Source of the DNA: Escherichia coli
GTDB lineage: Bacteria > Pseudomonadota > Gammaproteobacteria > Enterobacterales > Enterobacteriaceae
Direction: 5' to 3' (one strand)
Assembly (NCBI RefSeq): GCF_001677475.2
Contig: NZ_CP015229.1
Length of the DNA stretch: 64,000 nt
Notes under the pieces: model-generated
Told to the model about the DNA's origin: nothing
Database searches by the model: none
The model's input: only the letters and a program-made list of their open reading frames with translations
Program-made: the position numbers and the translations under genes
Shown here: one piece after another, positions 32,131 through 63,756 of the stretch
Numbering within the stretch: the first letter of the stretch is position 1
How the letters are laid out: every line of letters begins with the position of its first letter

Positions 32131-34046
32131 GATGCCTTCGTATCAAACAGAGTTAACATATCGCGCGCCGCCTGCCTTCCTGCGGCCATTGCAGTGACAA
32201 CCAGATCCGCGCCATGAACTGCATCACCACCAGCAAAGACTTTTTTCAGATGCGTCTGGGTAGGTAAATACCCGACGTCACCGGTTTGAATCAGGCCCCA
32301 TTTATCGAGTTTAATTCCGCTGCCCTGCAACCACGGCATGGCATGCGCCTGGAAACCAAAGGCCATAATGAGAACATCGGCGGGCAATTCAAACTCTGAA
32401 CCCGCTACCGGACGAGGACGACGGCGACCATCCGGCCCCGGCTCACCCATGGCGGTACGAATCAGGCCCACCGCAGTTAAACGCCCATCTTCGTCACAAG
32501 CGATATATTGCGGCTGAACATTGAACTGAAACTCGACACCTTCCTCGCGCGCATTGACCACCTCTTTGCGCGAGCCCGGCATACTGACTTCATCACGACG
32601 ATACGCGCAGGTCACGCTGGCGGCATTGAGGCGGATGGAAGTCCGCAAACAATCCATGGTCGTATCGCCACCGCCCAATACCACGACTCGCTTACCTTCC
32701 ACATCCGTCAGCGGATACTCTTCAGACTCCGGCAACCCCATGAGCTGGCGGGTATGGGCAGTCAGGAATGGTAGAGCCTGAATGACACCGGGCGCATCTT
32801 CATGCGGCAGATCTGCTCGCATCATCCCGTAAGTCCCCACGCCGATGAAAACTGCATCATATTCAGAAGTTAAATCGCTAAAGGCAATATCGCGGCCAAT
32901 TTCACAGTTAAGATGAAAGTCGATTCCCATTGCGGTGAATATCTCTCGCCGCTGGCTTAATACCGTTTTATCGAGTTTGAAAGGAGGTATGCCAAAAGTC
33001 AGCATACCGCCAATTTCTGGATGGCGATCAAAGACATCAACCTGAACTCCTGCGCGCGCCAAAATATCAGCACACCCTAACCCTGCAGGCCCTGCGCCAA
33101 TCACCGCCACTTTTTCGATACGGGGAACAACTTTGCTGACATCGGGACGCCAGCCCATCGCCAGCGCGGTATCGGTAATGTAGCGTTCCAGATTCCCGAT
33201 AGAGACTGCGCCAGAGTGATCTTTCAAAGTACATGCGCCTTCACAAAGACGGTCCTGTGGACATACCCTGCCGCAGATTTCTGGCAAGGAACTGGTCTGG
33301 TGGCAAAGTTCTGCCGCTTCAATAATCTTTCCTTCCTGCACCAGACGGATGTAATCCGGAATAGCGTTATGCAGCGGGCAATGCCAGTTGCAGTTAGCTT
33401 TTTCGGCGCAATAAACACAGCGGTCACTCTCATAAGTCGCTTGTTGTGGATCCAGCCCGTAATAGATTTCGCCAAAGTGGGTTTTCCGTTCACTCGCTGA
33501 AATTTTATCTGCGCCTTTACGCGAGTTAACGGGGAGCAACGCTGCACTGCGAGATGGCTGAGCGTCTGATGACGCTTTTCCTGCTGCCGTTTTGCGCTGG
33601 CGGACCACCTTTATCTGTTGCAACCCTTTATCGTCCATCAGCCGTAACGCCTGTGTTGGGCAGACTTCAATACAGGCTTGCGTGCCGGAACTACGCTGGT
33701 TACAAAGGTCGCATTTCTGCGCAATCGTATCGACCATCTCAACGACGCCAAAGGGGCAAGCGATTGCGCATCTTTTACAACCAATACATTTTTGCTCGTC
33801 CAGTTGTACGCTATCGGGCTGGAAAGTCAGAGCATTAACCGGACAAGCCGTAACGCAAGGGGCATTGTTGCAGTGATGGCAGGCCACCGGATTCGCAGCC
33901 TGGCCTTTCCCTACAACGTGGATACGCGGTCGAAAGTCACTGTGACTCAGCGGCCAGTTTTCTTGATTATGTGCCATCGCACAGGCAATTTCACAAGCAT
34001 GACAGCCTATACATTCCGCAGCTTCAGCAGCGATAAACTTATTCAT
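32127..34046 (-). CDS. ygfT: fused 4Fe-4S / FAD-NAD(P) pyridine nucleotide-disulfide oxidoreductase
   Basis: Translation from [23 protein letters not shown]; Rossmann motif [12 protein letters not shown]; supplied ORF extends 5 codons upstream; stop overlaps the ygfS start. Confidence 0.88.
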
Positions 34047-48917: not shown

Positions 48918-49106
48918 AAAGGCGCCGAAGCGCCTTTCAAATTGATGACAAAGTGCGTTTTTATGCCGGATGCGGCGTGAACGCCTTATCCAGCCTACAA
49001 GATCGTGCAAATTCAATACATTGCAGAGACCATGTAGGCCTGATAAACGAAGTGCATCAGGCAATGTTGAGTTTGTCATCAGCCTCAAAGGCGCCGAAGC
49101 GCCTTT
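48918..49106. repeat. REP/BIME-like cluster: two REP-like palindromic units flanked by two identical 20-bp hairpins AAAGGCGCCGAAGCGCCTTT
   Basis: Identical hairpin copies at 48918-48937 and 49087-49106; REP-like units around 48965-48999 (GCCGGATGCGGCGTGAACGCCTTATCC) and 49034-49062 (GTAGGCCTGATAAACGAAGTGCATCAGGC). Confidence 0.7.
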
Positions 49107-49128: not shown

Positions 49129-52002
49129 TTACTGGTATTCGCTAATCGGTACGCAGGAGCAGAACAGGTTACGGTCGCCGTAAACATCATCCAGACGTTT
49201 CACTGTTGGCCAGTATTTGTCTGCCACGCCTGCCGGGAATACTGCAACGTCACGGCTGTACGGATGCGCCCACTCGGCGACCAGTTCGCTCTGAATGTGC
49301 GGCGCGTTCACCAGCGGGTTATCTTCCAGCGGCCAGACACCAGCTTTCACCTGTTCAATTTCTGCGCGGATAGCCAGCATAGCGTCGATAAAGCGATCCA
49401 GTTCCACTTTGCTTTCAGATTCAGTCGGTTCAACCATCAGCGTACCCGCCACCGGGAACGACATCGTCGGCGCGTGGAAACCGTAGTCGATCAGGCGCTT
49501 GGCAATATCCAGCTCGCTGATGCCGGTTTCTTCTTTCAGCGGGCGAATATCGAGAATACATTCGTGCGCCACGCGACCGTCGCGACCGGTATACAGCACC
49601 GGGAAGGCATCCTGCAGGCGGCTGGCAATATAGTTGGCGTTAAGAATTGCCACCTGGCTTGCTTTTTTCAGCCCTTCTGCGCCCATCATGCGGATGTACA
49701 TCCAGCTGATTGGCAGAATGGATGCGCTACCGAACGGTGCCGCAGAAACCGCGCCCTGACGGGTTAACATGCCTTCGATTTGCACCACGCTATGACCCGG
49801 TACAAACGGTGCCAGATGCGCTTTCACACCGATCGGTCCCATACCCGGACCACCACCGCCGTGCGGAATGCAGAAAGTTTTATGCAGGTTAAGGTGCGAA
49901 ACATCCGCGCCAATAAAGCCCGGCGAAGTGATACCAACCTGAGCGTTCATGTTCGCGCCATCAAGGTAAACCTGACCACCGAACTGATGCACGACTTCAC
50001 ACACCTCACGGATCGTTTCTTCATACACGCCGTGGGTGGAAGGATAGGTCACCATGATACAGGAGAGGTTATCGCCCGCCTGTTCCGCTTTCGCGCGCAG
50101 ATCAGTCAGATCGATGTTGCCGTTTTTATCACACGCCACAACCACCACCTGCATTCCTGCCATATGTGCAGAAGCGGGGTTAGTTCCGTGCGCAGAAGCC
50201 GGGATCAGGCAGATATCGCGATGCCCTTCGTTGCGGCTTTCATGATAATGACGAATCGCCAGCAGGCCCGCATATTCGCCCTGTGCGCCAGAGTTCGGCT
50301 GCATACAAACGGCGTCGTAACCGGTCAGTTTCACCAGCCAGTCAGCCAACTGCGCAATCATCTGCTGATAACCTTCGGCCTGTTCCGGCGGGCAGAACGG
50401 GTGCAGTTCGGCAAATTCCGGCCAGGTGATTGGGATCATCTCGGCGGCGGCGTTCAGTTTCATGGTGCAGGAACCCAGCGGGATCATCGCCTGATTCAGC
50501 GCCAGATCTTTACGCTCCAGCGAGTGCATATAGCGCATCATTTCGGTTTCGCTGTGGTAGCGATTAAACACCGGATGAGTGAGGATTTCGTCGTCGCGCA
50601 GCATCGCAGGCTGAATAGAGCGGCTGTCGTGAGCCACGTCTTTGTCCAGCGTGTCGATCTCCAGCCCGTGGTTATCGCCCAGCAGCACGCTGAAAAGCTG
50701 CATCACGTTTTCACGCGTGGTGGTTTCATCAAGGGTGATCCCAACCGCGTTCAGGATATCGCTACGCAGGTTGATTTCAGCCGCTTCGGCACGCGTCAGT
50801 ACGCCCGCTTTGTCGGCCACTTCCACACACAAGGTGTCGAAATAGTGCGCATGACGCAGTTTCAGACCTTTTTGTTGCAGGCCCGCCGCCAGGATATCGG
50901 TCAGACGGTGGATGCGGTTAGCGATACGTTTCAGGCCCACCGGGCCGTGATAAACGGCATACAGGCTGGCGATGTTTGCCAGCAGTACCTGGGAAGTACA
51001 AATGTTGGAGTTCGCTTTCTCACGGCGAATATGTTGCTCGCGAGTCTGCATCGCCATGCGCAGCGCGGTATTGCCAGCTGCATCTTTCGATACACCGATA
51101 ATACGGCCCGGCATTGAGCGTTTGTATTCATCTTTCGCCGCAAAGAATGCCGCGTGTGGGCCTCCGTAGCCCATCGGCACGCCGAAACGTTGCGCCGAAC
51201 CAAAGACAATATCCGCGCCCTGTTTACCCGGCGCAGTTAACAGCACCAGCGCCATAATATCGGCGGCAACGCTGACCACGATTTTGCGTGATTTCAGTTC
51301 GCTGATAAGCGCAGTATAGTCGTGGATTTCACCGGTAGTGCCGACCTGCTGTAACAGCACGCCGAAGACGTCCTGATGATCGAGCACTTTTTGCGCGTCA
51401 TCGACAATCACTTCAAAACCAAAGGTTTCGGCACGAGTACGGACCACATCCAGCGTTTGCGGATGCACATCGGAAGCCACGAAGAAGCGGTTGGCATTTT
51501 TCAGTTTGCTGACGCGTTTCGCCATCGCCATTGCTTCGGCGGCAGCAGTGGCTTCGTCAAGAAGAGAAGCCGATGCCATATCCAGCCCGGTTAAATCCAG
51601 CGTTACCTGCTGGAAGTTGAGCAGTGCTTCAAGGCGGCCCTGGGAGACTTCAGGTTGATACGGAGTATACGCGGTATACCAGCCCGGATTTTCCAGCATG
51701 TTACGCAGGATAACCGGCGGTAACTGCACGGCGGTGTACCCCATGCCGATGTAAGACGTGAAGCGTTTATTGCGACTGGCAATAGCCTTGAGTTCTGCCA
51801 GTGCGGCGTATTCGGTCGCCGGTGCGCCAACCTGCGGCGGAGTCGCAAGCTGAATATCTTTCGGCACAATCTGGCCGGTCAGCGCGTTTAACGATTGTGC
51901 GCCAACGGCATTCAGCATTTCTTGCTGTTGCGCGGCGTCCGGTCCGATATGGCGTTCAATAAAAGCGCCGCTGTTTTCAAGCTGGCTTAACGTCTGTGTC
52001 AT
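49129..52002 (-). CDS. gcvP: glycine dehydrogenase (decarboxylating), glycine cleavage system P-protein
   Basis: Translation from [22 protein letters not shown]; supplied ORF has a 28-codon extension. Confidence 0.93.
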
Positions 52003-52040
52003 GAGCGATGGTTCCTGAAACGTGCAGTGAATTGTGAACC

Positions 52041-52110
52041 TCTCTCCTTGCGAAGAGAGTGAGGGTGAGGCGTAAAAGTTCCTCACCCTGATCCTCTCCC
52101 GCAGAAGAGG
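52041..52110 (-). other. three consecutive hairpins in the gcvH-gcvP intercistronic region
   Basis: CTCTC-n8-GAGAG (52041-52058), AGGGTGAGG-n10-CCTCACCCT (52061-52088) and TCCTCT-n8-AGAGGA (52091-52110). Confidence 0.4.
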
Positions 52111-58506: not shown

Positions 58507-58902
<396 letters not shown>

Positions 58903-58943
58903 CACTTTTCGGTTTACTGTGGTAGAGTAACCGTGAAGACAAA

Positions 58944-59128
58944 ATTTCTCTGAGATGTTCGCAAGCGGGCCAGTCCCCTGAGCCGATATTTCATACCACA
59001 AGAATGTGGCGCTCCGCGGTTGGTGAGCATGCTCGGTCCGTCCGAGAAGCCTTAAAACTGCGACGACACATTCACCTTGAACCAAGGGTTCAAGGGTTAC
59101 AGCCTGCGGCGGCATCTCGGAGATTCCC
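58944..59128 (+). ncRNA. ssrS: 6S RNA (SsrS), RNA polymerase-sigma70 regulatory RNA
   Basis: Sequence ATTTCTCTGAGATGTTCGCAAGCGGGCCAGTCCCCTGAGCCGATATTTCATACCACAAGAATGTGG...GGCATCTCGGAGATTCCC matches the 6S RNA sequence as I remember it; ends are approximate to within a few nt. Confidence 0.9.
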
Positions 59129-59201
59129 TTCTTATCTGGCACCAGCCATGACGCAACTACCAGAACTCCCACTGACATTATCCCGACAAGAAATCCGCAA
59201 A

Positions 59202-59750
59202 ATGATTCGGCAACGTCGTCGTGCGTTAACGCCGGAACAACAGCAGGAAATGGGTCAACAAGCCGCTACCCGGATGATGACGTATCCCCCGGTGGTGATG
59301 GCACATACGGTCGCTGTATTCCTCTCTTTTGATGGCGAACTCGACACCCAGCCACTCATAGAACAACTCTGGCGCGCCGGTAAGCGCGTATATCTTCCAG
59401 TTTTGCATCCCTTTAGTGCCGGTAATTTGCTGTTCCTGAATTACCATCCGCAAAGCGAACTGGTGATGAACAGGTTGAAGATCCATGAGCCAAAACTGGA
59501 TGTGCGTGACGTGCTACCCCTTTCCCGATTAGACGTGTTGATCACACCGCTGGTCGCCTTTGATGAGTACGGTCAGCGCCTGGGAATGGGCGGTGGTTTT
59601 TATGATCGGACCTTACAAAACTGGCAGCGCTATCAAATGCAACCGGTGGGTTATGCGCATGATTGTCAGTTGGTGGAAAAACTCCCCGTTGAAGAGTGGG
59701 ATATCCCACTTCCTGCGGTGGTTACACCGTCGAAAGTCTGGGAGTGGTAA
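59202..59750 (+). CDS. fau: 5-formyltetrahydrofolate cyclo-ligase
   Basis: Translation from MIRQRRRALTPEQQQEMGQQAATRMM; the supplied ORF (start 59004) extends back into ssrS and I reject that extension. Confidence 0.85.
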   Translation: MIRQRRRALTPEQQQEMGQQAATRMMTYPPVVMAHTVAVFLSFDGELDTQPLIEQLWRAGKRVYLPVLHPFSAGNLLFLNYHPQSELVMNRLKIHEPKLDVRDVLPLSRLDVLITPLVAFDEYGQRLGMGGGFYDRTLQNWQRYQMQPVGYAHDCQLVEKLPVEEWDIPLPAVVTPSKVWEW

Positions 59751-59810
59751 GGGCGACACACCTGCATCGCCCTGATTGACATCGTTGATTCTTTAACCTA
59801 ATTTAGTGAG

Positions 59811-59950
59811 TAAGGGTAAGGGAGGATTGCTCCTCCCCTGAGACTGACTGTTAATAAGCTGGGAAACTTATGAGTAACAGTACAATCAGTATGATGACAA
59901 GTCGCATCATAACCCTTCTCCTTTAAGCCCTCGCTTCGGTGAGGGCTTTT
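59811..59950 (+). ncRNA. sibC: SibC antisense small RNA (type I antitoxin), cis-encoded opposite ibsC
   Basis: Candidate promoter TTGACA (59776-59781), 17-nt spacer, TAATTT (59799-59804); terminator hairpin AAGCCCTC-gcttcggt-GAGGGCTT plus T-run at 59925-59950; fully overlaps ibsC on the opposite strand; ends approximate. Confidence 0.7.
59851..59910 (-). CDS. ibsC: IbsC small hydrophobic toxic peptide (19 aa), type I toxin
   Basis: Minus strand ATG ATG CGA CTT GTC ATC ATA CTG ATT GTA CTG TTA CTC ATA AGT TTC CCA GCT TAT TAA translates to MMRLVIILIVLLLISFPAY; too short to appear in the supplied ORF list. Confidence 0.8.
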   Translation of the reverse strand: MMRLVIILIVLLLISFPAY

Positions 59951-60138
59951 CCGTTACAGCCCCATGCTGCCCTGCCATCGTAAATCCCCATTAAATAAAC
60001 ACAACGCATTGATCTGACTTTGATTTATTTTCTGGAGCAGACTCGCAAAGTAGAATGCGCAACGCGGCAACGGTGTGGAGAAGGGATAAAAAAACGGGCA
60101 AGTCAGTGACCTGCCCGTTGATTGTCAGAGAAGGGGAA

Positions 60139-61371
60139 TTAGTACAGCAGACGGGCGCGAATGGTACCCGGAATAGCTTTCATTGCCTGCAGCGCTTTTT
60201 CGGCAACGTCTTCGTCGGCTTCAATATCAATAACTACATAACCCATCTGGGCGGAAGTTTGCAGATATTGCGCGGCGATGTTGACCCCCTGCTCGGCAAA
60301 AATTTTGTTGAGCGCAGTTAGCACGCCCGGACGGTTTTCGTGGATGTGCATCAGACGACGCCCACCGTGCAGTGGCAGCGAGACTTCCGGGAAGTTCACC
60401 GCAGAGAGCGTTGAGCCATTGTCAGAGTACTTGATCAATTTACCCGCAACTTCCAGGCCGATATTCTCCTGCGCTTCCTGAGTCGAACCGCCAATGTGTG
60501 GCGTCAGAAGAACGTTGTCGAATTCACACAGCGGAGAGGTAAATGGATCGCTATTGGTCGCCGGTTCCGTCGGGAATACGTCGATTGCCGCCCCCGCCAG
60601 ATGTTTGCTCGCCAGCGCGTCACACAGCGCTGGAATATCCACCACAGTACCGCGCGAGGCATTAATTAGCAGCGAGCCGGGCTTCATTAGTGAAATTTCT
60701 TTCGCGCCCATCATATTTTTGGTGGACGGATTCTCTGGTACATGCAGACTCACCACATCGCTCATATTCAGCAGGTCAGAAAGATGCTGTATCTGAGTGG
60801 CGTTGCCTAGCGGCAGTTTGTTTTCAATATCATAAAAGTAAACATACATTCCCAGCGATTCAGCCAGAATGCCCAATTGCGTACCAATATGACCGTAGCC
60901 GATGATACCCAGCTTTTTGCCGCGCGCTTCAAAAGAACCCGCCGCCAGTTTGTTCCACACGCCACGGTGCGCTTTAGCATTGGCTTCCGGCACGCCGCGC
61001 AATAGCAGCAGCAGTTCGCCAATCACCAGCTCCGCAACAGAGCGAGTATTTGAGAACGGTGCGTTAAATACCGGGATACCGCGTTTTGCCGCCGCATCCA
61101 GATCAACCTGGTTTGTTCCGATACAGAAACAGCCAATAGCGACCAGTTTTTCTGCGGCGTTGATCACGTCTTCAGTCAGATGGGTACGGGATCGCAGGCC
61201 GATGAAGTGGGCATCGCGGATGGATTCTTTTAATTGTTCATCATCCAGCGCGCCTTTGTGAAATTCGATGTTGGTGTAACCAGCTGCACGAAGGCTTTCC
61301 AGCGCCTTTTGGTGCACGCCTTCTACCAGCAGAAACTTAATCTTGTCTTTCTCCAGCGATACCTTTGCCAT
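60139..61371 (-). CDS. serA: D-3-phosphoglycerate dehydrogenase
   Basis: 410 aa, MAKVSLEKDKIKFLLVEGVHQKALESLRAAGY; C-terminal regulatory (ACT) domain. Confidence 0.93.
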   Translation of the reverse strand: MAKVSLEKDKIKFLLVEGVHQKALESLRAAGYTNIEFHKGALDDEQLKESIRDAHFIGLRSRTHLTEDVINAAEKLVAIGCFCIGTNQVDLDAAAKRGIPVFNAPFSNTRSVAELVIGELLLLLRGVPEANAKAHRGVWNKLAAGSFEARGKKLGIIGYGHIGTQLGILAESLGMYVYFYDIENKLPLGNATQIQHLSDLLNMSDVVSLHVPENPSTKNMMGAKEISLMKPGSLLINASRGTVVDIPALCDALASKHLAGAAIDVFPTEPATNSDPFTSPLCEFDNVLLTPHIGGSTQEAQENIGLEVAGKLIKYSDNGSTLSAVNFPEVSLPLHGGRRLMHIHENRPGVLTALNKIFAEQGVNIAAQYLQTSAQMGYVVIDIEADEDVAEKALQAMKAIPGTIRARLLY

Positions 61372-61626
61372 TTACCCAATCCTGTCTTTTGAAATGTTGT
61401 GTGCGGATTTGCGTCCGCCTTTCAACATATCAAAAAATAATATTGCGGCAATATGAACGTTTGCGTCGCGATGTTGAGGAAATATCACGCAAAGGTAATT
61501 ATTGGATGAATATGCTGGTTTAGAGGATTTATTTAGAGCAATCGACAATAGCCAGGTAAAAACGTGACACATGTCACCAAATTTAATGAAGAGAATTTTT
61601 TTAACGGGGGAGGTTCCCCCGTCAGA

Positions 61627-62286
61627 TCATTTCACAATGGTTTTGACACCGTCAGGTGTGCCAATCAGCGCAACGTCCGCGCCACGGTTAGCAAACAAGC
61701 CAACAGTCACCACGCCAGGAATCGCATTTATGGCGTTTTCCATCGCTATCGGGTCAAGGATTTCCATGCCGTGGACGTCGAGGATCACGTTGCCGTTATC
61801 GGTCACCACGCCCTGACGGTATTCCGGACGACCGCCCAGTTTCACCAGCTGGCGCGCCACTGCACTACGTGCCATCGGGATAACTTCTACTGGCAGCGGG
61901 AATTTGCCCAGAATATCAACCTGCTTGGAGGCGTCGGCAATACAGATAAATTTTTCCGCAACCGAAGCAATGATTTTTTCACGGGTCAGCGCCGCGCCGC
62001 CGCCTTTGATCATTTGCATGTGGCCGTTGATTTCATCTGCGCCATCAACGTAGATGCCAAGGCTGTCGACTTCGTTGAGATCAAAAACGTGAATGCCGAG
62101 GCTTTTCAGTTTTTCAGTGGAAGCATCTGAACTGGAAACGGCCCCTTCAATCTGGCCTTTCATTGTACCGAGCGCGTCAATAAAGTGTGCGGCGGTGGAA
62201 CCTGTACCTACACCAACAATGGTGCCGGGCTGAACATACTGAAGTGCCGCCCATCCTACTGCTTTTTTCAATTCATCCTGCGTCAT
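61627..62286 (-). CDS. rpiA: ribose-5-phosphate isomerase A
   Basis: Translation from [31 protein letters not shown]; supplied ORF has a 12-codon extension. Confidence 0.92.
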
Positions 62287-62368
62287 GATCGTTTCGCCTG
62301 TGGTATGAAATTTCACACGCATTATACTCTAAATAATTCGAGTTGCAGGAAGGCGACAAGAGAGTGAC

Positions 62369-62471
62369 AAATTCGTCAGGAACGAATTTGCCCAGCCGCA
62401 GGCTGGCCTTCGGTGAGAGACATGGATGTCTCTCATTAATCCCCAGGAGCTTACAGAAGTAAGTGACTGGG
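62369..62471. other. cluster of four consecutive hairpins in the rpiA-argP intergenic region
   Basis: CAAATTCGT-cagga-ACGAATTTG (62369-62390); CCAGCC-gca-GGCTGG (62392-62406); GAGAGACA-tgga-TGTCTCTC (62415-62434); CCCCAG-n19-CTGGGG (62441-62471). Confidence 0.35.
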
Positions 62472-62862
62472 GTGAGCGAACGCAGACGCAGCACATGCAA
62501 CTTGAAGTATGACGAGTATATACAAAAAAAGCGATTCAGACCCCGTTGGCAAGCCGCGTGGTTAACTCATCCATAAAATATCGCGCAATGGCGGGCATCC
62601 CCTTTCGCCCGGCAAATAAAGCATACAACGGTCTGGGTATGCCGCTCCACGGTGCGAACAGAGGCAATAACGCCACGCCATTCAACATAACCAGGGCGCG
62701 AAGTCGCTAAGCGAAATGCAATAGCGCAAATCCCTGATCTTTTAAGCTGCGCGTTTAACCATTGATACAAATGTTACCCACCGACGGCTTCGGTATATGC
62801 AACCTGACACAAAATTGTGTCATAGTGCAGGAAAAAGCATTTACCAGGAGCAGACAACAGCA

Positions 62863-63756
62863 ATGAAACGCCCGGACTACAGAACATTACAGGCACTGGA
62901 TGCGGTGATACGTGAACGAGGATTTGAGCGCGCGGCACAAAAGCTGTGCATTACACAATCAGCCGTCTCACAGCGCATTAAGCAACTGGAAAATATGTTC
63001 GGGCAGCCGCTGTTGGTGCGTACCGTACCGCCGCGCCCGACGGAACAAGGGCAAAAACTGCTGGCACTGCTGCGCCAGGTGGAGTTGCTGGAAGAAGAGT
63101 GGCTGGGCGATGAACAAACCGGTTCAACTCCGCTGCTGCTTTCACTGGCGGTCAACGCTGACAGTCTGGCGACGTGGTTGCTTCCGGCGCTGGCTCCTGT
63201 GTTAGCTGATTCGCCTATCCGCCTCAACTTGCAGGTAGAAGATGAAACCCGCACTCAGGAACGTCTGCGCCGTGGCGAAGTGGTCGGCGCGGTGAGTATT
63301 CAACATCAGGCGCTGCCGAGTTGTCTTGTCGATAAGCTCGGTGCGCTTGACTATCTGTTCGTCAGCTCAAAACCGTTTGCCGAAAAATATTTCCCTAACG
63401 GCGTAACGCGTTCGGCATTATTGAAAGCACCTGTGGTCGCCTTTGACCATCTTGACGATATGCACCAGGCCTTTTTGCAGCAAAACTTCGATCTGCCCCC
63501 AGGCAGCGTACCGTGCCATATCGTTAATTCTTCAGAAGCGTTCGTACAACTTGCTCGCCAGGGCACCACCTGCTGTATGATCCCGCACCTGCAAATCGAG
63601 AAAGAACTGGCCAGCGGTGAATTGATTGACTTAACGCCGGGGCTATTTCAACGCCGGATGCTCTACTGGCACCGCTTTGCTCCTGAAAGCCGCATGATGC
63701 GTAAAGTCACTGATGCGTTGCTCGATTATGGTCACAAAGTCCTTCGTCAGGATTAA
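62863..63756 (+). CDS. argP: LysR-family transcriptional regulator ArgP (IciA)
   Basis: Translation from [43 protein letters not shown]; supplied ORF has a 22-codon extension. Confidence 0.92.

What the first reader, a model, noticed from the sequence alone, without database searches (positions are those of the whole stretch)
59776..59950. Type I toxin-antitoxin pair ibsC/sibC in the fau-serA intergenic region
A 19-codon minus-strand ORF encodes the very hydrophobic peptide MMRLVIILIVLLLISFPAY, which is invisible to a 60-aa ORF cutoff. On the plus strand a near-consensus sigma70 promoter (TTGACA-17-TAATTT) and a terminator bracket about 140 nt that fully overlap the ORF in antisense. This is the Ibs toxin / Sib antitoxin RNA architecture. 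The peptide ends ...SFPAY, where I remember ...SFSAY, so this may be an allelic variant.
Basis: partly seen in the sequence, partly recalled or inferred. Interest (0 to 1): 0.5.

Follow-up and report, generated by a model that had tools for sequence, protein, structure and literature searches.

The report
Known ibsC/sibC toxin-antitoxin locus

Summary
A 19-codon minus-strand ORF (59910..59851) encodes MMRLVIILIVLLLISFPAY. It lies wholly inside a plus-strand RNA gene that matches Rfam SIB_RNA at 138 bits (threshold 56, E 2e-28). Synteny (zapA-ssrS-fau-sibC/ibsC-serA-rpiA) is the same as in E. coli K-12, and the 388-nt spacer is 97.7% identical to K-12. By homology, SibC is 59812-59952 (141 nt) and the ibsC mRNA is 59970..59812.

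It is not rare. The window's version of this stretch occurs in 2790 of 5426 complete E. coli genomes and K-12's in 2165.

The same three bases are SibC nt 49-51 (UGG here, GCU in K-12). This is the core of the TRD1 loop that published work showed sets Sib/ibs pairing specificity. It is also the most variable stretch of that loop across 37 enterobacterial Sib copies. A second change (C113U) lies at the edge of TRD2.

All functional parts are intact, so the mechanism should be the published one: antisense SibC represses a membrane-depolarising peptide. Nothing new in kind. Interest is low.

The parts
59776..59804 (+). sibC promoter: -35 TTGACA (59776-59781), 17-nt spacer, -10 TAATTT (59799-59804), with C immediately upstream of the -10. 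One spacer base differs from K-12 (59795, G>A).
   Evidence: Sequence. Both hexamers are identical to K-12. The Rfam SIB consensus conserves this promoter segment. Sigma-S polymerase binding at this promoter in K-12 is reported in PMC4447067. Not found by the generic scan.
59812..59952 (+). SibC antitoxin RNA, 141 nt. P1 is nt 1-6/101-106. The P5 loop (TRD1) is nt 48-55, window 59859-59866. The P6 hairpin is nt 79-100. J1/7 (TRD2 core) is nt 107-113, window 59918-59924. The P7 terminator is at 59925-59948.
   Evidence: Boundaries transferred from the K-12 b4446 annotation. Rfam RF00113 scores 138.2 bits. MFE is -55.2 kcal/mol, z = -5.3, and reproduces the published domain layout (PMC2943612). 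Compensatory changes occur in P2, P4/5 and P7 across 37 copies.
59851..59910 (-). ibsC ORF: 19 codons plus TAA, encoding MMRLVIILIVLLLISFPAY. Codon 17 (59862..59860) is CCA (Pro) against AGC (Ser) in K-12.
   Evidence: Family alignment with IbsA-E and 31 enterobacterial copies. PF13956 hit on the identical gene call in a contig 100% identical to the window.
59812..59970 (-). ibsC mRNA, inferred to be 159 nt. +1 is G at 59970, the SD AAGGAG is at 59923..59918, and the start codons AUGAUG are at 59910..59905.
   Evidence: Han et al. 2010 (PMC2943612) report a 159-nt mRNA with an 18-nt 5' overhang beyond the SibC 3' end. Their stated pairings (G50/G51/G53 with SibC C110/C109/C107) fit these coordinates. 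The fold is -63 kcal/mol, z = -5.4. The coordinate transfer is my inference.
59977..60004 (-). ibsC promoter (inferred): -35 TTGTGT (60004..59999), 16-nt spacer, -10 TACGAT (59982..59977).
   Evidence: Position follows from the +1 above. The hexamer columns align with those upstream of K-12 ibsD/E/A/B. The region is identical to K-12. Not reported by the generic scan.
59860..59862 (.). Polymorphic triplet: SibC nt 49-51 is UGG here and GCU in K-12. It is also ibsC codon 17 (Pro against Ser) and forms the core of the TRD1 kissing loop.
   Evidence: Han et al. changed exactly G49CU51 to UGC to retarget SibC to ibsD. Allele counts are 2790 against 2165 of 5426 genomes. Column entropy peaks here.

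Best explanation
The region is the chromosomal sibC/ibsC type I toxin-antitoxin module of an E. coli-lineage genome.

**How it works**
- The minus strand produces a roughly 159-nt mRNA from a weak promoter. It encodes IbsC, a 19-residue single-helix hydrophobic peptide. When made in excess, IbsC inserts into the inner membrane, depolarises it and stops growth.
- The plus strand constitutively produces the 141-nt SibC RNA, which is perfectly complementary to the whole functional mRNA.
- SibC first contacts the mRNA through one of two sites. TRD1 is the P5 loop and targets the ORF around codon 17. TRD2 is the single-stranded J1/7 segment and targets the Shine-Dalgarno/start region.
- Pairing then spreads, translation initiation is blocked and the duplex is degraded. 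RNase III cleaves it in vitro.

**The Ser17/Pro17 difference**
- It is the protein-level consequence of a 3-nt replacement in the TRD1 loop.
- Both strands change together, so cognate pairing is preserved.

**Shown here at sequence level**
- Family membership.
- Orthology by synteny.
- Intact ORF, SD, promoters and terminator.
- RNA structure.
- Allele frequencies.

**Taken from K-12 experiments and inferred for this allele**
- Transcription.
- Toxicity.
- Repression.
- The degradation route.
For: - Rfam SIB_RNA scores 138.2 bits against a gathering score of 56, E = 2e-28.
- The ORF translation is confirmed.
- Gene order matches K-12 and strain HH97, with annotated sibC/ibsC in both.
- The spacer is 97.7% identical to K-12. 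SibC differs at only 5 of 141 nt (49-51, 113, 139), and all promoter hexamers, the SD and the start codons are unchanged.
- The locus is present in 5425 of 5426 complete E. coli genomes.
- The identical peptide is annotated IbsC in RefSeq. A contig 100% identical to the window has a PF13956 Ibs_toxin hit.
- The SibC MFE reproduces P1, the P5 loop, P6, single-stranded J1/7 and the terminator, with z = -5.3.
- Compensatory pairs occur across 37 copies from Escherichia, Citrobacter, Salmonella, Kluyvera, Phytobacter and Pseudocitrobacter.
- The mechanism comes from PMC2943612 and the review PMC8309996.
- Pro at position 17 also occurs in K-12 IbsB and IbsE and in many orthologues. IbsC is reported to tolerate extensive mutation (PMC7192591).
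Against: - Nothing contradicts this explanation.
- No expression or toxicity data exist for this exact allele.
- The combination UGG49-51 plus U113 plus U139 was not found intact in any complete RefSeq E. coli genome: there was no full-length 100% match to the 96-mer, and 3 records matched 95 of 96.
- The generic promoter/terminator scanner reported neither the sibC promoter nor its terminator. Their assignment therefore rests on homology to mapped K-12 ends.
- The YUNR motif (UUCA) that Han et al. suggested might nucleate TRD1 recognition is absent from this allele's target loop, which reads UUUCCCAG.
- The primary toxicity papers (Fozo 2008; Mok 2010) could not be read here.
Confidence: 0.95

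Rival explanations
1. The module is a decaying, non-functional relic: either the toxin has been inactivated by the Ser17Pro change near the C-terminus, or the antitoxin promoter has been weakened by the spacer change.
For: The C-terminal and central residues (6-19) are reported to be the part of IbsC needed for toxicity (PMC8309996), and residue 17 lies in that stretch. One base in the sibC promoter spacer differs from K-12 (59795).
Against: Pro17 is the majority E. coli allele (2790 of 5426 genomes). It also occurs in K-12 IbsB and IbsE, the latter annotated as a toxic peptide, and in many other genera. The ORF, SD, start codons, both promoters' hexamers and the terminator are intact. Position 17 is the most variable residue in the family, so it is tolerant rather than critical.
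Confidence: 0.03
2. The plus-strand RNA is not only an antitoxin. It may also act in trans on other transcripts, for example non-cognate ibs mRNAs, or encode a peptide: the plus-strand mini-ORF at 59870-59926, MSNSTISMMTSRIITLLL.
For: The window's TRD1 triplet UGG differs from K-12 SibD's UGC by one base instead of three. A SibC carrying UGC represses ibsD (PMC2943612). An 18-codon plus-strand ORF exists, with a GGGA 6 nt upstream of its ATG that K-12 lacks.
Against: The longest uninterrupted match to K-12 SibD around TRD1 is only 14 nt, against the 22-bp helix formed by the engineered retargeted SibC. The mini-ORF is not conserved in length: 18 codons here and 37 in K-12. It lies in paired regions of SibC and is not annotated in any record examined. 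The sibD/E locus of the source genome is outside the window.
Confidence: 0.04

Closest known systems
E. coli K-12 sibC (b4446) / ibsC (b4665), formerly QUAD1c / RygC / t27
   Same: Same chromosomal position between fau and serA. Same RNA length of 141 nt, same promoter hexamers, SD, start codons and terminator stem. SibC is identical at 136 of 141 nt and the peptide at 18 of 19 residues.
   Different: SibC nt 49-51 is UGG instead of GCU, giving IbsC Pro17 instead of Ser17. C113U lies at the 3' edge of the TRD2 core, just 5' of the ibsC SD. A139U lengthens the terminator U run from 3 to 4. There is one change in the promoter spacer.
E. coli HH97 ibsC (WP_071525914.1) and the 2790 complete genomes with the same TRD1 allele
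   Same: Identical IbsC peptide (SFPAY) and identical SibC nt 1-112.
   Different: HH97 has C113 and A139, like K-12. It shows four differences from the window across the 388-nt spacer.
Tandem two-copy sibC locus of E. coli O157:H7 and about a third of E. coli genomes
   Same: Same spacer and the same module. The serA-proximal copy shares the window's U113.
   Different: These genomes carry two modules with a 393-nt period, encoding ...SLPAY and ...SFGAY. Their TRD1 loops are UGGC and UCCG. The window has a single copy.
Paralogues SibA/B/D/E - IbsA/B/D/E of K-12
   Same: Same architecture, the same conserved P1 and P6 stems and the MM(K/R)...Y peptide pattern. Pro17 is shared with IbsB and IbsE.
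   Different: 76-81% nucleotide identity. They sit at different loci (yegL-mdtA and yqiK-hldE) and have different TRD1 and TRD2 sequences.

Membership tests
Sib RNA (Rfam RF00113) | Covariance-model score at or above the curated gathering threshold | tested here: met
   138.2 bits against 56, E = 2e-28, covering the full model 1-147.
Sib RNA (Rfam RF00113) | Roughly 140-nt RNA with its own promoter and intrinsic terminator | tested here: met
   Promoter hexamers and the terminator stem are identical to K-12 sibC, whose ends are annotated. This gives 59812-59952, 141 nt. This is sequence-level only; the generic scan missed both signals.
Sib RNA (Rfam RF00113) | Conserved secondary structure: P1 closing stem, P5 loop carrying TRD1, P6 hairpin, single-stranded J1/7 carrying TRD2 | tested here: met
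   The MFE structure shows all of these elements, z = -5.3. 8 of 29 consensus pairs show compensatory changes across 37 copies. The layout is as described in PMC2943612.
Sib RNA (Rfam RF00113) | Abundant transcript detectable in vivo | not testable with these tools
   Only K-12 data exist in the literature (PMC2943612, PMC4447067).
Ibs toxin (Pfam PF13956) | 18-19 residue, highly hydrophobic peptide with the pattern MM[KRQ]..II......S[FL]..Y | tested here: met
   MMRLVIILIVLLLISFPAY, GRAVY 2.40. It aligns without gaps to IbsA, C, D and E and to 31 enterobacterial copies.
Ibs toxin (Pfam PF13956) | Profile-HMM match | tested here: met
   Indirect. However, the identical 19-aa gene call on a contig 100% identical to the window carries a precomputed PF13956 hit.
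Ibs toxin (Pfam PF13956) | Toxic (membrane depolarisation) on overexpression | not testable with these tools
   Shown for K-12 IbsC (Ser17) according to PMC8309996 and PMC7192591. Not shown for Pro17.
Type I toxin-antitoxin system (cis-antisense) | Antitoxin is an RNA complementary to the toxin mRNA, including its translation initiation region | tested here: met
   SibC (59812-59952) covers the ORF (59851-59910), the SD (59918-59923) and the start codons on the opposite strand.
Type I toxin-antitoxin system (cis-antisense) | Antitoxin RNA represses toxin synthesis | not testable with these tools
   Shown for K-12 SibC/ibsC (PMC2943612). Inferred here.
sibC/ibsC orthologue (as opposed to sibA/B/D/E) | Location between fau (ygfA) and serA, downstream of ssrS | tested here: met
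   6S RNA lies at 58944-59127, fau ends at 59750 and serA is at 60139-61371 on the minus strand. The order is the same in K-12, HH97 and O157.

The most novel reading that the evidence does not exclude
The Ser17/Pro17 'protein polymorphism' may really be a polymorphism of the RNA recognition code.

- E. coli populations keep at least four alternative TRD1 loop sequences at this one locus: GCU, UGG, UGGC with Leu16, and UCCG.
- These occupy exactly the triplet shown experimentally to set Sib/ibs specificity.
- The variation may be maintained by selection to avoid cross-talk, as the number of sib/ibs modules varies from strain to strain.
- The window's allele also changes the edge of TRD2 (U113) and lacks the proposed YUNR nucleation motif. 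SibC alleles might therefore not be fully interchangeable between strains.
Probability: 0.3. Interest if true: 0.3.

Novelty: already known. Interest (0 to 1): 0.1.

Why it matters
The main value is for annotation quality.

Biologically the locus is textbook material. The only modest added point is that the amino-acid difference from K-12 coincides with the TRD1 specificity triplet of SibC, and that K-12 carries the minority allele. This is relevant to anyone using K-12 SibC/ibsC as a scaffold or as a model for cis-antisense recognition.

Tried and rejected
1. The generic sigma-70/terminator scan over 59700-60200 found neither the sibC promoter nor its terminator. It found only the serA terminator at 60119..60093. 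This reflects the scan's thresholds (-10 at 3/6, four U), not absence of the signals.
I substituted RefSeq annotation of the identical peptide and a precomputed Pfam hit on an identical contig.
3. The primary papers Fozo et al. 2008 and Mok et al. 2010 are not held in the library. Their content is cited only through PMC2943612, PMC8309996 and PMC7192591.
4. The first attempt to find sibD/E in strain HH97 fetched the wrong 49 kb. The second attempt found only ibsE.
5. I considered that the many BLAST 'places' meant IS elements, and hence a Shigella origin. The ORF layout is an ordinary E. coli core region from glyU to argP, so I did not pursue this.
6. I considered that the window's single copy might be a simple recombinant of the O157 tandem copies. 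This was rejected because nt 17-18 and nt 61 differ from both O157 copies.
7. The conservation of SibC nt 80-106 in the 37-copy alignment was forced by the search pattern used. It is not used as evidence.

Full report
**1. Observation**

- The minus strand from 59910 to 59851 reads ATG ATG CGA CTT GTC ATC ATA CTG ATT GTA CTG TTA CTC ATA AGT TTC CCA GCT TAT TAA, which translates to MMRLVIILIVLLLISFPAY*.
- An AAGGAG Shine-Dalgarno sequence lies 7 nt upstream of the ATG.
- The peptide's mean Kyte-Doolittle hydropathy is 2.40.
- On the plus strand, TTGACA (59776-59781), a 17-nt spacer and TAATTT (59799-59804) are present.
- A 10-bp GC-rich hairpin with a UUCG loop lies at 59925-59948 and is followed by a short U tail.
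- The -10 hexamer matches TATAAT at only three positions and the U tract is short. The generic scan therefore reported neither signal. 'Near-consensus' applies to the -35 only.

**2. Is it more than chance?**

Yes.

- A scan of the whole window against Rfam gave one SIB_RNA (RF00113) hit at 59776-59926 on the plus strand. It scores 138.2 bits against a gathering score of 56, with E = 2e-28, over the full model.
- The Rfam model starts in the promoter and ends before the terminator, so its coordinates are offset from the real RNA.
- The 141-nt RNA folds to -55.2 kcal/mol, compared with -36.2 ± 3.6 for shuffles (z = -5.3).

**3. Identity of the locus**

- The neighbours are zapA (58573-58902), 6S RNA (58944-59127, 139.8 bits), fau (ending at 59750), serA (60139-61371, minus strand) and rpiA.
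- K-12 MG1655 has the same order, with sibC (b4446, 141 nt) and ibsC (b4665) annotated between fau and serA. Strain HH97 also has this order.
- The 388-nt spacer aligns without gaps to both. Transferring the K-12 coordinates gives SibC at 59812-59952 and ibsC at 59851-59910.
- The spacer is found in 5425 of 5426 complete E. coli genomes.
- The best identity among those genomes is 99.0%. However, a contig of NCBI assembly GCA_043014985.2 is 100% identical to the window over 4233 bp. It carries a 19-aa gene call with a Pfam PF13956 Ibs_toxin hit.
- The window as a whole is an ordinary E. coli core region running from tRNA-Gly(CCC) through the xdh/yge genes and gcvTHP to argP. It is about 98.6% identical to K-12 around this locus.

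**4. The allelic difference**

The window and HH97 end in SFPAY.
- The difference is a three-base replacement on the plus strand, GCT to TGG at 59860-59862. This changes codon 17 from AGC to CCA.
- I searched 40-mers centred on the triplet, so that a 28-nt exact seed must span it. The window allele was found in 2790 of 5426 genomes and the K-12 allele in 2165.
- Pro17 is therefore the majority allele.
- It is probably the older one. UGG at this position is also found in Escherichia sp. E1V33 and in the fau-proximal copy of O157:H7.
- Pro at position 17 also occurs in K-12 IbsB and IbsE and in many orthologues.

**5. What the triplet is at the RNA level**

- The three bases are SibC nt 49-51. 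They lie in the 8-nt P5 loop (nt 48-55) of the predicted structure.
- Han et al. 2010 (PMC2943612) defined TRD1 as nt 46-68 (the P5 loop) and TRD2 as nt 99-115 (J1/7). They showed that either domain suffices for repression.
- They also retargeted SibC to ibsD by changing exactly G49CU51 to UGC and C107-C113 to the SibD sequence.
- The window's UGG is one base away from SibD's UGC.
- A second window-specific change, C113U (59924), is the last base of the TRD2 core and sits just 5' of the ibsC SD.
- A third change, A139U (59950), lengthens the terminator U run.
- Because the pair is cis-encoded, cognate complementarity is preserved automatically.
- I aligned 37 Sib copies: the window, the five K-12 copies, and 31 from Escherichia, Citrobacter, Salmonella, Kluyvera, Phytobacter, Pseudocitrobacter and related MAGs.
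  - In this alignment nt 49-52 is a run of four consecutive high-entropy columns (1.1-1.7 bits).
  - The mean over the ORF-antisense part is 0.48 bits.
  - Nt 80-106 were fixed by my search pattern and say nothing about conservation.
- The combination UGG plus U113 is rare. No complete genome matched the 96-mer over its full length at 100%, and three records matched 95 of 96.
- The UUCA YUNR motif that Han et al. suggested for the mRNA target loop is absent from this allele, whose loop reads UUUCCCAG. If that motif matters, it is not needed in the majority allele.

**6. Toxin mRNA and its promoter**

- Han et al. report a 159-nt ibsC mRNA whose 5' end overhangs the SibC 3' end by 18 nt. This places +1 at G59970 on the minus strand.
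- Their stated pairings of mRNA G50, G51 and G53 with SibC C110, C109 and C107 fit these coordinates exactly.
- Upstream lie TACGAT (59982..59977) and TTGTGT (60004..59999), with a 16-nt spacer. These align with the corresponding hexamers of ibsD, E, A and B.
- This stretch is identical to K-12.
- The mRNA folds to -63 kcal/mol (z = -5.4). Its AUGAUG start codons are paired with CAUCAU from codons 5-7.

**7. Mechanism**

*From the literature, inferred for this allele:*
- SibC is abundant. In K-12 its promoter is also bound by sigma-S RNA polymerase, and its levels are rpoS-dependent at 28 °C (PMC4447067).
- SibC contacts the ibsC mRNA through TRD1 or TRD2, and pairing then spreads. The initiation region is occluded and the mRNA is degraded. 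RNase III cleaves the duplex in vitro.
- IbsC forms a transmembrane helix, depolarises the membrane within minutes and induces the psp operon. Residues 6-19 carry the toxicity, and the sequence tolerates many substitutions.

*Shown here:*
- Family membership, orthology, intactness of every sequence element, RNA structure with covariation, and allele frequencies.

*Not shown:*
- Expression, toxicity and repression for this exact allele.

**8. Comparison with known systems and novelty**

This is a member of the Sib/Ibs family and the orthologue of K-12 sibC/ibsC. All sequence-testable defining features were met. The locus, the peptide allele (WP_071525914.1) and the exact DNA are already in public databases. 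I rate the novelty 'already known' and the interest at 0.1.

The only mildly new angle is that the natural Ser/Pro polymorphism coincides with the experimentally defined specificity triplet, and that several alternative loop sequences segregate at this locus in E. coli. This fits the discrimination model already proposed by Han et al.

**9. Copy-number context**

- About a third of complete E. coli genomes have two tandem modules in this spacer (7311 places in 5425 genomes).
- In O157:H7 F3113 the two copies encode ...SLPAY and ...SFGAY. They differ mainly at nt 49-52 and nt 113.
- The window has one copy.
- HH97, which shares the window's TRD1 allele, has only ibsE and no ibsD between yqiK and hldE.

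Noticed in passing
window 58944-59127 (+): 6S RNA (ssrS), Rfam RF00013 at 139.8 bits, immediately upstream of fau as in K-12. The longest fau ORF (59004-59750) overlaps it. Annotated fau starts in K-12 and in PGAP map to 59202 and 59148 respectively, both downstream of the 6S 3' end.
   Followed up: partly
window 48999-49041 (+): Rfam ES036 (CssrF) sRNA hit only just above threshold (40.8 bits against 37.6), in the gap next to the 3' end of the gcvP ORF (49129-52086, minus strand).
   Followed up: no
window 2280-2353 (-): tRNA-Gly with anticodon CCC (glyU-like). It marks the left part of the window, which then runs through the xdh/yge/ygf gene block.
   Followed up: no
L036 (E. coli O157:H7 F3113) 1109-1889; compare window 59751-60138: About a third of complete E. 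coli genomes carry two tandem sib/ibs modules (393-nt period) between fau and serA, whereas the window has one. The two O157 copies differ mainly in the TRD1 loop (UGGC against UCCG), at nt 113 and in the terminator tail.
   Followed up: partly
L037 (E. coli HH97) 33226-33285: A strain with the same IbsC Pro17 allele has only ibsE annotated between yqiK and hldE, and no ibsD. The number of Sib/Ibs paralogues therefore varies at that locus too.
   Followed up: no
window 59870-59926 (+): SibC-sense mini-ORF MSNSTISMMTSRIITLLL*. Its stop codon TAA is created by the C>T change at 59924, and in K-12 the same frame runs to 37 codons. A GGGA lies 6 nt upstream of the ATG in this allele only. There is no evidence that it is translated.
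   Followed up: partly
window 59859-59866 (ibsC mRNA nt 105-112): The mRNA loop targeted by TRD1 reads UUUCCCAG here. It lacks the UUCA YUNR motif proposed for K-12 and is predicted to be a 4-nt loop rather than a 6-nt one. The kanamycin-B-sensitive nucleotide U107 reported for K-12 ibsC mRNA (PMC10018874) is 2 nt from the polymorphic codon.
   Followed up: partly
window 58639-62871: 100% identical to NCBI GCA_043014985.2 contig ABVVWG020000002.1. No complete RefSeq E. coli genome is identical even over the 388-nt spacer (best 99.0%). The source is therefore an E. coli-lineage isolate that is not among the complete genomes, and its organism name was not available.
   Followed up: partly
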